Shown here one piece after another: positions 16,103 through 42,652 of a stretch of DNA of 64,000 nucleotides. The stretch lies in the NCBI RefSeq assembly GCF_009914755.1, contig NC_060925.1; one strand, written 5' to 3'. Both the position numbers and the translations under genes were made by a program. This stretch comes from the human T2T-CHM13v2.0 reference genome, Homo sapiens. Position 1 is the stretch's first letter. Every line of letters starts with the position of its first letter. The notes below the pieces were generated by a model. The model was not told the origin of the DNA. It worked only from the letters and a program-made list of their open reading frames with translations, and made no database searches.

Positions 16103-16214
16103 CAAGGATGAATGGTCCAGCTCTCTTTGCATTATTTCCAGAAATCCCACTTCCTAGAGCCTTGGCCCTGGCCGACGTTTCCCCAGCTCCTCTGTCTGAT
16201 GCTCTCCGCTTCAT
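16103..16214 (-). CDS. STK40: STK40 first coding exon (MKRRASDRGAGETSARAKALGSGISGNNAKRAGPFIL); exon begins at 16222
   Basis: Matches the STK40 N-terminus. Acceptor tctag|AGCTGAGAATG and donor CTTG|gtaag; 112 coding nt. Confidence 0.95.
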
Positions 16215-22072: not shown

Positions 22073-23019
22073 TAGAACCTGAACTCAACAGGAAGCTCAG
22101 AGAGGCAACAATGAGGGTGAGGGGAGGAGGCCAGGAAAGAGCAAGAGAGCCCAGCTGGCACTCCGCCGTCCGCAGGCTGTAGCTGTGCCTGATTCTGAAA
22201 GCAGGGGGTTCCATTGCTTTGCCAAGCCTGGGGAGCAACTGTGGGCCTCAGTGTGAGAGGGCCTCACCTGTGGGACAGCTCCCACTGCGTGGCCTGAGTA
22301 GGGGGTACCTGATCTTACTCTGTCAATTTGGGGCTAAAGTCATCTCACCCTAAAGCTACCGGGCAACGTGAGCCCAGATCTCCCAGCAAGGCAGTGAAAG
22401 CCAAGCCATCAGAGCCACATAAGGGTTCCAAGGCTGAAGATGCCCGGAGTCCAGTGGTATAGTGTGACCAGGTCCAGGAAAGCTGGCAGGGATAGCTCTA
22501 CCCCATGGTTCCACCTGGTAGACACACCAATCTCCAAAGGGATGAGGGGTACAAAGATGGCACTGAGCAGATGAAACGCCACCACTGATCTCCCCAGCTC
22601 AGTCTGTCCTCATGTCTACCCAACTACAAAGGAGCTGAAGCCTGGCCAAGGCATGGAGGGTCCCCCACTCTACACTGAGAAGCATCCCCACAGGCAGCCA
22701 CATAGGAGCGCACACATGCTGGCAATTACCTACTTGACATACAGTAAGGGACTGTCCAGGATGAAGAGTCCGCCAGCCTCCCTGAATGGGTCTGTGGTCA
22801 TGCTCCAGTTGGAGGTGAAGTGTGGGTGGTGGGGAGGAGTCTGGAATTCAGACCTGGTGCCTCCAGCTTAAGATCTCTTGGAGCAGGATTGCGGGAGGAG
22901 AGCAGAGCACATATATTGTGCTGTAAAACTTTTACTGCCGAAGGACATAGCTTCTGGGTGTGTGCACTGGTCAAAACAATTGAACAGCACAGTTAAAAGA
23001 CATGTGAAATCACTGTGTG

Positions 23020-39268: not shown

Positions 39269-40625
39269 TAATTAGACTGTATGCTCCTTGAAATAAAAAT
39301 AGATAACATTTATTGAATTCTTATTACGTGGCAAACATGGTTGTATGTTTTACATGTTAACTTTTTACTCTTCATAATATCTCTCTCTGTTATCATCCTT
39401 GTTTTATAGACGAAGACACTGAGGCACAGGGAGACTAAGCAATGTGCCCAGGTACACACAGCTGGAAAGTTGCTGAGCCAGAATTTGAACTCAGGAAGTC
39501 TGGCTCCAAAGCCTACTCTTAACCACTATGCTGTCTAGCACTTGCCTCTAGGCAAGGACTCTTGTTGTGGTCATGTGAGAAATGAATGAATGAATGAATG
39601 AGGACTGTCTAGATTAACCCAACCAACAACTTGCACAGCACGGCCATTAGGAAGCACTAAAGGAGCTCACAGGCACTGTTTACAAACAAGATTATTTTGG
39701 CCCTACAATTACACATTCTGCTCTTCCTTATCTCACGCAAAACTACTCAAAGAGGGAAAGGCGCCCAGCCCAGTATGCCTACCCTCTTCCCCACTGGTTC
39801 TCAAAACCAAAGCAAAGCCAACCGGTTTCCTCCAGTGACTTAAAACAGAGCAAAGTCTATCCTGCCACACAGAGGGCGGCTGTCATCTCTTCCTTCCGCT
39901 AACAAAAGGGCTTCAAACCTGGGGATTGGGGTGGGCAGAAAACTCGGCATCAGGAATCCGAATGTCCCTACCTAACTGGCTGGAAGGCGGGGCCAAGTGG
40001 CGTGGGAATGGGCGGGCCTGACCGGCTCGGCAGGTGAAACACTGACCACAGCAAGCTCTCCTTGGAAAAGGCCGGCCAAACGTGGCCTTGGCAAGCAGGT
40101 AGCTGTGACTCGTACCTGAACGCCGCCCGGGATATGAAAATTCCCCAGCAGCGGTAGCGCCCGTGCCAGAGTGAGGGCTCTTGGAGGAAGCCCTGGCTGG
40201 CCCTCCCTGGGGACTCGTTCTAACTATCAAGTCACCCTCGGGATTAGGAGGGAAACACGGAGAGGCAGAAGGTGTCTTTTTGGAAAGATCTGGCTGGATT
40301 CACACGCCGGTTGCTTCACTCACTGGCTGGGTGACTCTAGGCAAAGCTGGCAGTGCCCACTTCCCAGAGCTGCGGCGGGGACTGAAGCTCCCGCGGCCTC
40401 CCGGTACCCGGCGCGAGGCAGCCCTCGCCCCTGCCGCCGGGGAAGGGCAGAGCCCCAGCGGAGGAGGGGGCATTCGCCGGGGCCATTTCTGCTGCACTCA
40501 GATGGCTTCAGGCTGTCACTCCGATTCCACCGCCGCGGCCGCCGGGGCCCGCCCCGCCTACCCGCAACCCCCACCCGGCTCCCCGCTCCTGGACCCCTGC
40601 CCTCACCTTCGCCGGGTGGTCAGAG

Positions 40626-40637
40626 CTATTCGCCCAT
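40626..40637 (-). CDS. Candidate uORF2 in the STK40 leader (MGE*)
   Basis: ACT ATG GGC GAA TAG, with A at -3 and G at +4. Confidence 0.5.
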   Translation of the reverse strand: MGE

Positions 40638-40714
40638 AGTCCGTAGCCCAGAGCCGGGGCTGCTCGGCTCTCCCTCCCGGGGGGCCGGGGCCGGGCTGGA
40701 GGCGTGCGAGCCTC

Positions 40715-40777
40715 TCACCGCCGCGTCCCAGCGCAGCCACCCGAGCCGCCGCCGCCGCCGCCGCCGCCTCCCTCCAT
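40715..40777 (-). CDS. Candidate uORF1 in the STK40 leader, MEGGGGGGGGGSGGCAGTRR (20 aa, poly-Gly)
   Basis: GCAGCCATGG strong Kozak context; GGA(GGC)8; TGA at 40715-40717. Translation is not demonstrated. Confidence 0.55.
   Translation of the reverse strand: MEGGGGGGGGGSGGCAGTRR
40745..40768 (-). repeat. (GGC)8 trinucleotide repeat in the STK40 5' UTR
   Basis: GCCGCCGCC... on the plus strand. Confidence 0.95.
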
Positions 40778-41522
40778 GGCTGCGGCGCCGCCACCTGACA
40801 ACGGAAGTGACGCACCGCCCCCCTCCTCCCCAGCCTTAGCCGCGGCCCCGCCCCCCCGGGCCCCGCCCTCCGCCTGCGTCTCCAGCCCCACGGCTTTCGG
40901 ATTGGGGCGCCATCTTGACGATGGGCGGAAGACTTCAGGCAAGAGGCCAGAGTCCGATTGAGGATTGGTTCAGGGTGGGGTCTGGGCGAAACCTGTTACA
41001 CGATTGGAGGCCGAGGCTCTAATGGGGCGGTACTTACTGCTGATCTATATCTGCGGCGAGGCTGGGACGGAGGCACCGCCCCGCCCGACCCCACAGAACC
41101 TCGCGGGCCCTACACTCCCCCTGCCGAGGTTGAAGTCCCCAGCGGTTGGAAGATCGGCCAATTGTAGTGTATTTATCAGAAAAGTGACTCATCCTTGATC
41201 CTCATTTCCCGGTTTGTGGAACTCTGTGAGGAAAGCCCTGCAGTTAGGCTCAATAAAAGACAGAAATTCCTGTCGCAGCGCTCATAATTCATTTCCCTCT
41301 AGGTCTGTCGCCTTTGTAGAAACCCCGAGGATGGCAACCTTCAACCTGGAGATCCCTGAAGCCTTGACCAGGGAGGTTTACAGTGAAGCGTTCCTATTAG
41401 CGACTACAGCTATCTAACCTCAGTTCCTCCTGCTGCAGTTTCGGTCCCTTTCTCCTCCTCCTCCAGCAACCACGCCCTCCATGAATCAGCTTCTTGCACC
41501 AGCAGATGAGCCCTTTAAAGGG

Positions 41523-41531
41523 ATTGCATCA
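41523..41531. promoter_or_regulatory. C/EBP-ATF composite element (AARE/CARE) ATTGCATCA
   Basis: Exact match to the TGATGCAAT consensus (reverse strand), ~0.7 kb upstream of the STK40 TSS and next to AP-1 TGACTCA at 41538-41544. Confidence 0.45.
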
Positions 41532-42652
41532 GGCAAGTGACTCACTGGGGCCCTCTAAGAGCCTGGCTTCCCTCCCTTGGCATGCAGAAGCAGCTAGAAG
41601 GGCTCAGTGGCAGCAGCACCAGCGGCCGTAGCCCCACTCCCTTGTCCCAGAGGTGTGAGTCAGGGTGTTTGCTGCTTATGATGTCTAACTCTTGGCTGTC
41701 TTTCCAGCTGTCCCCTGGGTCACTCTATATCCATGTGTGGGCACACGTGTCTAAGCTTGTGTGCACTGCTGGGTTTTCCTAGGGTGTGTGGCCACTTGTG
41801 TGTATGTGCATTTGTCATCTCCACATAGGCAGTGCCAGGACACAAGAGCTGATATGAGTGAAGTCTGGCTGCCTCTACCTGTGTCCTTTGTCTCTGAATG
41901 CCTGGTGCCCACTGAGCTGCTGATAGGGCTGACTAACAAGAGTAATCAGGACAGCTCCCACCGTTGTGCCACACTCTGCATGGAGCACTTGAGACAGTAT
42001 TAGGTAGGAGGCTGTTTACAGCTGAGGAAGCCAGTGCTCAGAGAAGGAAATTAATGTGCCCAAACACACACAGCTAATAATGGCAGGGCTAGGATTCAAA
42101 TCAAGTCTGATGGATTCCAAAAAACTTGGCTTTGAATCCCTGCTGCATCACTTACAAGCTGGGTGACTATGTGCAAATTGCCCAATCTTCCCCTTCTGTC
42201 CAAACAGGGATAACGCTTGGGGGATCACTGTGAGGACTCGGAGTTATAGAAACAGCTTTTTGCAAGACCCAGCGAGCACTCATACTCATCTCAGTTGAAG
42301 GGCTTCAATGAGGTGGGTGACCAAAAGACAGGCATAAAGAAGGCCCCAGCCCAGCAAGCTCCACTCTCTGACAAAACAAAAAGCCTAGGGATTCCGGAAG
42401 CCCTGACTCTGACAAAAATGAGTTCTGGGTTTTCCAGAGCTCTAATTATCAGCTAGATGAATCACTCTGCGCTGACACCACCATTCCTACCCCCAGGAGA
42501 CTCTCAGCTGATTGAAAATCCAGGATTTTAACAAAGGAGAGGAGGAGGAACAGAAAGCTAGGAGGAGAAGAAGTAATGAATAGAAACCAAAGGTGCCAGC
42601 CAGAGGAAATGAGAAACTGTCATCAGGACACTACCATGAGGAGAACGCTGGG

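What the first reader, a model, noticed from the sequence alone, without database searches (positions are those of the whole stretch)
40715..40777. Strong-Kozak poly-glycine uORF encoded by a GGC repeat in the STK40 5' UTR
Seen: in exon 1, GCAGCC-ATG-G opens MEGGGGGGGGGSGGCAGTRR*, with (GGC)8 in the Gly frame. This context is better than that of the main ATG (CTGAGA-ATG-A). Established: an upstream start in frame with a 5'UTR GGC repeat is the architecture of the NOTCH2NLC uN2C-polyG and FMR1 FMRpolyG uORFs, which yield toxic poly-Gly proteins when the repeat expands. Inference: STK40 may carry a translated polyG micro-ORF that controls STK40 output and could be a latent repeat-expansion locus.
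Basis: partly seen in the sequence, partly recalled or inferred. Interest (0 to 1): 0.8.

Follow-up and report, generated by a model that had tools for sequence, protein, structure and literature searches.

The report
Poly-glycine upstream ORF in STK40 leader
The STK40 messenger RNA leader really does carry a short upstream reading frame that turns a GGC repeat into nine glycines, but it looks like an ordinary translation brake rather than a proven disease locus.

Summary
On the minus strand, ATG 40777 in the context GCAGCC-ATG-G opens MEGGGGGGGGGSGGCAGTRR*, ending at 40715. A perfect (GGC)8 at 40745-40768 is read as glycine. The ATG lies 31 nt from the RefSeq start of STK40 exon 1.

- a second strong-context mini-uORF (MGE*, 40637-40626) that ends 27 nt before the main AUG;
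- a predicted cap-proximal hairpin (-37.9 kcal/mol) built from the repeat, with the AUG in its loop.

A scan of the whole T2T genome shows that the ATG/Gly-frame pairing is at chance level (15 of 44 ATGs). Such loci are nevertheless few: 15, of which 4 have a strong context. NOTCH2NLC uN2C is one of the 15, and its context is weaker than STK40's.

No main text in the library links STK40 to a uORF or a CGG/GGC repeat. Translation, TSS usage, conservation and repeat polymorphism could not be tested here, and supplementary tables were closed.

Best reading: a probably translated, modestly repressive uORF in a CpG-island leader, with the glycine frame incidental. Its status as an expansion locus is hypothetical. 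It would be a new member of a known kind, of modest interest.

The parts
40607..40808 (-). STK40 exon 1 (RefSeq NM_001282547.2), entirely 5' UTR, 202 nt, 76% GC
   Evidence: Hub annotation; sequence read; length and GC; single copy in the T2T genome
40804..40810 (-). Initiator-like TCACTTC with its A at 40808, the RefSeq transcript start; overlaps an ETS-like CTTCCG (40807-40802)
   Evidence: It is the only YYANWYY match between 40500 and 40898; the motif consensus is recalled
40815..40868 (-). Three GGGCGG boxes (40820-40815, 40853-40848, 40868-40863) upstream of the start; no TATA; CpG island
   Evidence: GC 72.5%, CpG o/e 0.77 over 40300-41000
40774..40783 (-). Start context GCAGCC-ATG-G of uORF1 (G at -3, G at +4)
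40715..40777 (-). uORF1: 20 codons plus TGA, MEGGGGGGGGGSGGCAGTRR*, mRNA nt 32-94, frame +2 relative to the main ORF
40745..40768 (-). Perfect (GGC)8 read as Gly in uORF1
   Evidence: 8.0 copies, 100% matches, score 48
40746..40804 (-). Predicted cap-proximal hairpin (mRNA nt 5-63): the leader 5' arm pairs with the GGC repeat and the AUG sits in the apical loop
   Evidence: -37.9 kcal/mol, 82.5% of the ensemble, z -1.94, 7 of 200 shuffles fold at least as well; predicted stability rises with repeat number
40626..40637 (-). uORF2: ATG GGC GAA TAG (MGE*), context CGGACT-ATG-G (A at -3, G at +4). It starts 77 nt after the uORF1 stop and ends 27 nt before the main AUG
40638..40642 (-). GGACT, the only RRACH (m6A consensus) in exon 1; its A (40640) is the -3 base of the uORF2 start
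   Evidence: STK40 is reported as m6A-marked, and its m6A-marked region was tested as a 5' fusion to luciferase; the exact reporter region was not seen
16212..16214 (-). Main STK40 start codon, context CTGAGA-ATG-A, mRNA nt 211, 8 nt into exon 2
   Evidence: hub annotation

Best explanation
[quoted passage not shown] It most likely acts as an ordinary cis-acting brake on STK40 translation. Scanning 43S complexes that load at the annotated cap meet AUG-32 in a strong context after 31 nt, and most initiate there. They make a 20-residue Gly-rich peptide with no function of its own, which is rapidly degraded. They terminate at UGA (nt 92-94). Because the uORF is short, part of the 40S subunits resume scanning. 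Some are caught again by the strong-context 3-codon uORF2 (nt 172-183), which ends only 27 nt before the main AUG. The rest reach the main AUG (nt 211). The uORF1 stop lies 108 nt upstream of the exon 1/2 junction, so it could also expose the mRNA to nonsense-mediated decay. The GGC repeat is a CpG-island microsatellite that happens to be in the Gly frame. Its more direct contribution is probably the predicted cap-proximal hairpin, whose stability scales with repeat number. Shown here: sequence, frames, contexts, distances, predicted fold. Inferred: initiation, reinitiation, NMD, peptide instability.
For: The sequence and frame are exact. The start has a purine at -3 and G at +4, and there is no upstream in-frame AUG in the exon. 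The annotated start at 40808 coincides with an initiator-like motif preceded by three GC boxes, and no other initiator match lies downstream of the AUG in exon 1. uN2C has a weaker context (CTCCCC-ATG-T), yet it is reported to be translated from its AUG independently of repeat length, giving a small unstable protein (passages). uORFs are described as generally repressive (review passages). STK40 is reported to be under translational control, and its m6A-marked region, fused 5' of luciferase, changed reporter activity when mutated (passages). The hairpin is -37.9 kcal/mol with z -1.94, and its predicted energy goes from -16.3 kcal/mol at 0 repeats to -61 at 20.
Against: There are no ribosome-footprint, TIS-seq, CAGE, conservation or reporter data for this AUG. 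CpG-island promoters usually start over a broad zone, so part of the mRNAs may begin downstream of or too close to the AUG. A -38 kcal/mol hairpin starting 4 nt from the cap could hinder 43S loading altogether instead of favouring the uORF. The whole-exon fold is no more stable than shuffles (z +0.49, 134 of 200 shuffles fold at least as well). The ATG/Gly-frame pairing is at chance level genome-wide, so nothing argues for selection on the polyG product.
Confidence: 0.55

Rival explanations
1. Incidental sequence with little translation. Most STK40 transcripts start downstream of or within a few nucleotides of the ATG, or the cap-proximal hairpin blocks loading. uORF1 is then rarely decoded and has no measurable effect on STK40.
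For: CpG island without TATA. The transcript start is known here only from one RefSeq model. Hairpin of -37.9 kcal/mol beginning at nt 5. Chance-level frame statistics. No publication on this uORF.
Against: The RefSeq start coincides with the only initiator-like match in the exon region and sits 7-60 nt downstream of three GC boxes. 31 nt is enough leader for AUG recognition (recalled rule). The context is strong.
Confidence: 0.2
2. The repeat works as nucleic-acid structure or as a protein-binding DNA element, independent of the reading frame. As RNA it would be a cap-proximal hairpin or two-tetrad G-quadruplex that sets scanning efficiency. As DNA it would be a GC-rich promoter or silencer element. 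Repeat-length alleles would tune STK40 output without any role for the peptide.
For: The local hairpin is more stable than 193 of 200 shuffles. Predicted energy falls by roughly 2.4 kcal/mol per added unit beyond 12 units. A continuous run of G2+ tracts spans mRNA nt 34-98. RefSeq lists a silencer element at 40536-40915 over the whole exon (hub annotation). About 96% of CGG loci with a median of 8 units are reported to be polymorphic (passage).
Against: These are predictions only. There is no G3+ quadruplex motif. The whole-exon fold is not exceptional. This reading does not exclude uORF translation, since both can act together.
Confidence: 0.15
3. Regulated two-uORF switch. A permissive uORF1 followed by an inhibitory mini-uORF2 gives GCN4/ATF4-like delayed reinitiation. 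STK40 translation would then be spared or raised when eIF2 ternary complex is low, possibly modulated by m6A at the -3 base of the uORF2 start.
For: The layout is a 20-codon uORF1, a 77-nt gap, a 3-codon strong-context uORF2, then 27 nt to the main AUG. The only RRACH of exon 1 puts its A at -3 of uORF2. STK40 translation fell after WTAP loss, and mutating the motif adenines in its m6A-marked region, fused 5' of luciferase, lowered reporter activity (passages).
Against: uORF2 does not overlap the main ORF. No stress-translation data for STK40 were found. The reporter region used in that paper is in a supplement I could not open. Weakening the uORF2 context would be expected to raise, not lower, downstream translation.
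Confidence: 0.1
4. Latent polyG repeat-expansion locus. Rare large GGC expansions at STK40 would be translated from the strong AUG into an aggregating M-E-(G)n-SGGCAGTRR protein and cause a NIID/OPDM-like disease.
For: Same architecture as uN2C, with a stronger start context. The repeat is pure. Loci with a reference length of 8 units, FRA10AC1 and AFF3, are reported to reach 115 and 47 units (table passage). Only 15 loci in this genome share the ATG-in-Gly-frame layout.
Against: Eight units is far below any pathogenic range quoted (over 60-70 units). No paper in the library links STK40 to a CGG/GGC repeat or an expansion. 1836 CGG repeats are reported in 5' UTRs, and only a handful are known to expand pathogenically.
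Confidence: 0.03

Closest known systems
NOTCH2NLC uN2C / uN2CpolyG upstream ORF
   Same: A canonical ATG lies a few codons upstream of a GGC repeat in exon 1 of the 5' UTR, read as glycine (15 nt upstream in uN2C, 9 nt in STK40). With a normal repeat it is a small ORF; uN2C is reported as 56 aa, unstable, and translated regardless of repeat length. Both are recovered by the same genome-wide pattern.
   Different: The STK40 uORF is only 20 aa, with an 11-residue tail. It has 8 rather than about 12 units (10 in this T2T haplotype). Its context is strong (GCAGCC-ATG-G) against weak (CTCCCC-ATG-T) for uN2C. No translation, expansion, antibody or disease evidence exists for STK40.
FMR1 FMRpolyG (CGG repeat uORF)
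   Same: A 5' UTR CGG/GGC repeat is decoded as polyglycine by cap-dependent scanning, and it acts as an upstream ORF that lowers main-ORF translation even at normal length.
   Different: FMRpolyG starts at a near-cognate codon and overlaps the FMR1 ORF, with a normal length of about 30 units. STK40 uses an AUG, terminates 116 nt before the main AUG, and has 8 units.
GIPC1, antisense RILPL1 and LOC642361 polyG ORFs of oculopharyngodistal myopathy
   Same: GGC repeats in sequence annotated as noncoding lie inside small unrecognised ORFs and are translated to polyglycine (abstract and passages).
   Different: Those are defined by patient expansions and demonstrated proteins. STK40 has neither.
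Ordinary repressive AUG uORFs, and two-uORF leaders of the GCN4/ATF4 type
   Same: Short upstream ORFs with good context capture scanning ribosomes, and the spacing permits reinitiation (layout; general principle).
   Different: No conservation, footprint or stress-response data exist. The last uORF does not overlap the main ORF as it does in ATF4 (recalled).

Membership tests
PolyG upstream ORFs (uN2C / FMRpolyG class) | GGC/CGG repeat on the sense strand of a transcribed 5' UTR or 'noncoding' exon | tested here: met
   (GGC)8 at 40745-40768 lies inside RefSeq exon 1 (40607-40808) on the gene's strand (hub annotation)
PolyG upstream ORFs (uN2C / FMRpolyG class) | Upstream initiation codon in the glycine frame with no intervening stop | tested here: met
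   ATG 40777 lies 9 nt before the repeat; the translation is MEG9S...
PolyG upstream ORFs (uN2C / FMRpolyG class) | Translation of the ORF demonstrated (reporter, mass spectrometry, antibody or ribosome footprints) | not testable with these tools
   No such data in any main text found; supplementary ORF catalogues were closed
PolyG repeat-expansion disease loci | Repeat expanded beyond roughly 60 units in patients | not testable with these tools
   One haplotype only, with 8 units. No paper links STK40 with CGG/GGC repeats or expansions
PolyG repeat-expansion disease loci | PolyG protein in p62/ubiquitin-positive intranuclear inclusions | not testable with these tools
   Experimental feature (described)
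Regulatory (cis-repressive) uORF | AUG upstream of the main start within the annotated mRNA, in a favourable context | tested here: met
   mRNA nt 32, G at -3 and G at +4
Regulatory (cis-repressive) uORF | Start codon and frame conserved across mammals | not testable with these tools
   No non-human vertebrate sequence is reachable. The only related fact is that chimpanzee SVA copies carry STK40 exon 1; their sequences were not seen
Regulatory (cis-repressive) uORF | Mutation of the uAUG raises main-ORF output | not testable with these tools
   The published STK40 5'-fusion reporter addressed m6A motifs, not the AUGs
GCN4/ATF4-type delayed-reinitiation leader | Short permissive first uORF followed by an inhibitory last uORF close to or overlapping the main start | tested here: inconclusive
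   The layout fits (20 codons, 77 nt, 3 codons, 27 nt), but uORF2 does not overlap the main ORF and its inhibitory strength is unknown
GCN4/ATF4-type delayed-reinitiation leader | Preferential translation under eIF2alpha phosphorylation | not testable with these tools
   No data found

The most novel reading that the evidence does not exclude
The STK40 leader is a repeat-tuned translational rheostat. The polymorphic GGC tract sets both the length of a strongly initiated uORF and the stability of a cap-proximal hairpin that displays its AUG, upstream of a second m6A-flanked mini-uORF. Common length alleles would then change STK40 protein dosage. Rare expansions would yield an AUG-driven polyG protein from a better start site than that of NOTCH2NLC, making STK40 one of about 15 candidate polyG loci in the genome.
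Probability: 0.07. Interest if true: 0.7.

Novelty: new member of a known kind. Interest (0 to 1): 0.3.

Why it matters
STK40 is a COP1-binding pseudokinase (recalled). It is reported to be needed for erythropoiesis and to be under translational control, so knowing what in its leader sets protein output is useful. The more general value is the short census. In a complete human genome only 15 loci place an ATG within 30 nt upstream of, and in the glycine frame of, a perfect (GGC)8 or longer, and one of them is the NIID gene. Such a list could be checked against unsolved polyG-type disease. For STK40 itself there is as yet no sign of more than an ordinary uORF.

Tried and rejected
The Ribo-seq ORF catalogues, the Annear CGG catalogue and the Kuppers reporter sequences therefore remain unseen.
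3. One term-syntax error, corrected.
4. Literature. STK40+uORF gave 0 papers. STK40+'upstream open reading' gave 1 paper, unrelated. STK40+CGG gave 28 papers, of which 20 were listed and none by title or abstract start concerns the repeat; I did not open them. STK40+Ribo-seq or ribosome profiling gave 2 and 3 papers, with only the m6A study relevant. STK40+tandem repeat gave 19 papers, with only the SVA study touching exon 1. Two OR-type searches were swamped by papers without STK40, and one more found no transcriptome-wide polyG-uORF survey.
5. Whole-exon RNA fold: not more stable than shuffles (z +0.49), so a special global leader structure is rejected. Only the first 66 nt stand out, and modestly.
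6. Rfam scan of 39500-42000: 0 matches.
7. Enrichment of ATG upstream of GGC runs: rejected (62 against 50 control matches; frames 15/9/20).
8. Processed copies of exon 1 in the human genome as a proxy for 5' ends: none, single match only.
9. I counted only GGC runs preceded by A, G or T (261). The two complementary patterns were not run, so the total number of runs is a lower bound.

Full report
OBSERVATION. Read on the minus strand, the window shows gcagcc ATG gag gga (ggc)8 tcg ggt ggc tgc gct ggg acg cgg cgg TGA. The A of the ATG is at 40777 and the last base of the stop is at 40715. Translation under the standard code gives MEGGGGGGGGGSGGCAGTRR*. Tandem Repeats Finder reports a period-3 array at 40745-40768 with 8.0 copies and 100% matches. 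The uORF has GCAGCC-ATG-G. The main start at 16214 has CTGAGA-ATG-A. By the -3/+4 rule (recalled) the first is 'strong' and the second 'adequate'.

ANATOMY OF THE LEADER. I spliced exon 1 (40808..40607, 202 nt, 76% GC) to exon 2, which gives a 210-nt leader.
- uORF1 occupies nt 32-94 and is out of frame with the main ORF.
It reads ATG GGC GAA TAG and its context, CGGACT-ATG-G, is also strong. It starts 77 nt after the uORF1 stop and ends 27 nt before the main AUG at nt 211.
- The only RRACH motif in exon 1, GGACT, places its adenine (40640) at the -3 position of this second start.
- If the alternative exon 22730-22966 is included, four more AUGs enter the leader.
- No in-frame AUG precedes uORF1 within the exon. 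The only in-frame near-cognate is a TTG at nt 8. A GTG at nt 15 opens a 92-codon poly-Ala-frame ORF that overlaps the main start, but it lies very close to the cap.

TRANSCRIPT START. I could not consult CAGE. At the sequence level, the RefSeq start A (40808) is the A of TCACTTC. This is the only YYANWYY match between 40500 and 40898, and none lies downstream of the uORF AUG. It overlaps an ETS-like CTTCCG and is preceded by GGGCGG boxes at 40820, 40853 and 40868. There is no TATA. The region is a CpG island, with GC 72.5% and CpG o/e 0.77 over 40300-41000. The motif consensuses are recalled. This is modest support for a start upstream of the AUG, but broad initiation is typical of such promoters.

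RNA STRUCTURE. The whole exon folds at -107.5 kcal/mol, which is no better than dinucleotide shuffles (z +0.49; 134 of 200 shuffles fold at least as well). The first 66 nt form one dominant hairpin of -37.9 kcal/mol that takes 82.5% of the ensemble. Its z-score is -1.94, and 7 of 200 shuffles fold at least as well. In it nt 5-27 pair with the GGC repeat and the AUG is in the apical loop. I ran an in-silico series in which only the repeat number was varied. The local energy goes from -16.3 (0 units) to -37.9 (8), -41.9 (12), -61.0 (20) and -157.0 kcal/mol (60). The AUG stays predicted unpaired for 4 or more units. No Rfam family matches 39500-42000.

IS THE ARRANGEMENT MORE THAN CHANCE? The window's assembly could be searched whole.
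- The pattern ATG, 0-30 nt, (GGC)8 has 62 matches (24 forward, 38 reverse), against 50 (37+13) for the reversed control.
- These collapse to 44 distinct ATGs at 42 repeat loci. By length modulo 3, 15 are in the Gly frame, 9 in the Arg frame and 20 in the Ala frame. So there is neither enrichment of ATGs nor preference for glycine.
- The class is small, however. I fetched the other 14 Gly-frame loci and examined all 15 Gly-frame loci of the 44 ATGs. Four have a strong context: STK40, C2:60559106, C7:98235768 and C16:11951763. Six are adequate and five weak.
- Seven of the 15 ORFs are 36 aa or shorter on unspliced DNA.
- One of the 15 is C1:148519681, MWICPGGGG..., the uN2C ORF of NOTCH2NLC. The identification rests on the ATG lying 15 nt before the repeat, as; the peptide start is recalled. 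Its context, CTCCCC-ATG-T, is weak.
- Another, MDPGSGGGG...SSSGSSSSDSAPDCWDQ, I recognise from memory as the N-terminus of GSPT1, a coding polyG.
- As a denominator, at least 261 runs of (GGC)8 or more begin after A, G or T. Runs beginning after C were not counted.
- Limits: one haplotype, perfect repeats only, and no transcript annotation for the other loci.

LITERATURE.
- No paper holds both STK40 and uORF.
- The single paper with STK40 and 'upstream open reading' is unrelated.
- The STK40+CGG search returned 28 papers, 20 of them listed. By title and abstract start none concerns the repeat, and I did not open them.
- Passages of Boivin and Charlet-Berguerand 2022 (PMC8918734) and Boivin 2021 (PMC8186563) give the comparison points. 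The uN2C ATG lies 15 nt upstream of about 12 repeats. The protein is 56 aa and unstable, and it is translated independently of repeat length. FMRpolyG starts at a near-cognate codon by cap-dependent scanning and represses FMRP. Aggregation appears above about 30 glycines and disease above 60-70 repeats.
- The 2026 Nat Genet paper (PMC12987736; abstract and passages) extends this to GIPC1, antisense RILPL1 and LOC642361. It asks whether other such ORFs exist. Its Supplementary Note 8 was not readable.
- Annear 2021 (PMC7844047, passages) reports that 1836 of 6101 CGG repeats lie in 5' UTRs. About 96% of loci with a median of 8 units are polymorphic. Fragile-site loci with a reference length of 8 (FRA10AC1, AFF3) reach 115 and 47 units. 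STK40 is not in its main text.
- Wright and Todd's review (PMC10027321, passages) argues that repeat-containing uORFs may regulate translation natively.
- Kuppers 2019 (PMC6787028, passages) is the only study found that bears on STK40 translation. STK40 mRNA is m6A-marked and translationally down after WTAP knock-out in HEL cells by ribosome profiling, with lower protein. STK40 was the only one of six genes whose m6A-marked region was fused 5' of luciferase. Mutating the motif adenines lowered activity. The cloned sequence is in a supplement I could not open.
- Damert 2018 (PMC6139936; passages and section 10) reports that a chimpanzee SVA subfamily of 94 elements captured STK40 exon 1 by splicing. 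In the human T2T genome the exon is single-copy.

MECHANISM. The best-supported reading is an ordinary repressive uORF system.
- Shown: the sequences, frames, contexts, spacings and predicted fold.
- Inferred from established rules (recalled: Kozak context, leaky scanning and reinitiation after short uORFs, the 50-55 nt exon-junction rule for NMD, inhibition by cap-proximal hairpins): most scanning subunits from the 40808 start initiate at AUG-32. After 20 codons a fraction resume scanning and are partitioned between uORF2 and the main AUG.
- The uORF1 stop lies 108 nt upstream of the exon junction and may trigger NMD.
- The 20-residue peptide is unlikely to have a function of its own.
- The repeat contributes to the hairpin, so length alleles could shift output.

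I put this reading at 0.55. The rivals are:
- little or no translation, because of start-site heterogeneity or hairpin block (0.2);
- a frame-independent structural or DNA-element role of the repeat (0.15, not exclusive with the main reading);
- a regulated two-uORF, m6A-linked switch (0.1);
- a latent polyG expansion locus (0.03).

COMPARISON AND VERDICT. The locus works like uN2C in layout and meets the two sequence-level criteria of that class: a sense-strand 5' UTR GGC repeat, and an in-frame upstream start with no intervening stop. The criteria that make uN2C and FMRpolyG what they are could not be tested here: demonstrated translation, expansion in patients, and polyG inclusions. I therefore file it as a candidate new member of a known kind, not as a polyG disease locus. 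The instance appears unreported in the main texts searched. Interest is modest at 0.3. Specialists already expect further AUG-in-frame GGC uORFs, and nothing here shows that STK40's is used or unstable. The short genome-wide list and its stronger-than-uN2C start do make it a reasonable entry on a candidate list.

Noticed in passing
window 40626-40642 (-): A second, strong-context 3-codon uORF (MGE*) ends 27 nt before the main AUG. The only RRACH motif of exon 1 (GGACT) has its adenine at -3 of this start. This may connect to the published m6A-dependent translation of STK40.
   Followed up: partly
window 40836-40913 (-): A 25-codon ORF (MAPQSESRGAGDAGGGRGPGGRGRG) starts in a YY1-like AAGATGGCG motif about 105 nt upstream of the RefSeq start. 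It would become an additional upstream ORF if any transcripts start further upstream.
   Followed up: no
window 40776-40961 (+): The uORF1 start lies in a CCATGG palindrome. The plus-strand ATG of the same palindrome opens a 61-codon Pro/Ala-rich ORF running away from the gene. No transcript is annotated there.
   Followed up: no
window 22730-22966 (-): The alternative STK40 exon would add four more upstream AUGs to the leader (ORFs of 26, 14, 23 and 33 codons). The last one overlaps the main start out of frame.
   Followed up: partly
L004 (G000:C2:60559106 +), L008 (G000:C7:98235824 -), L002 (G000:C1:43850410 +): These are other short ATG-initiated polyG ORFs on perfect (GGC)8-9 tracts. L004 has a strong context and 28 aa. 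L008 has a strong context, and its polyG runs straight into a long poly-Cys (TGC) tract. L002 has an adequate context and 21 aa. Their genes and transcription status are unknown here.
   Followed up: partly
G000:C2:86916129-86916938, C2:110255833-110256023, C2:110999375-110999714; L005: These are clusters of many separate (GGC)8+ runs spaced 40-120 nt apart, i.e. higher-order tandem arrays. The L005 translation shows a repeating GLGLGLAGRRRR...AAAASAWPGGGG unit.
   Followed up: no
literature (PMC6139936), concerning window 40607-40808: In the chimpanzee, STK40 exon 1 was spliced onto an SVA retrotransposon and amplified to 94 copies (pt_SVA_D6). The exon with its uORF and GGC repeat is therefore a mobile promoter module there. 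In the human T2T genome it is single-copy.
   Followed up: partly
L003 (G000:C1:148519681 +): The NOTCH2NLC uN2C start has a weak -3/+4 context (CTCCCC-ATG-T) and 10 pure GGC units in this haplotype, yet it is the validated polyG uORF. Start-context strength alone is therefore a poor predictor.
   Followed up: partly
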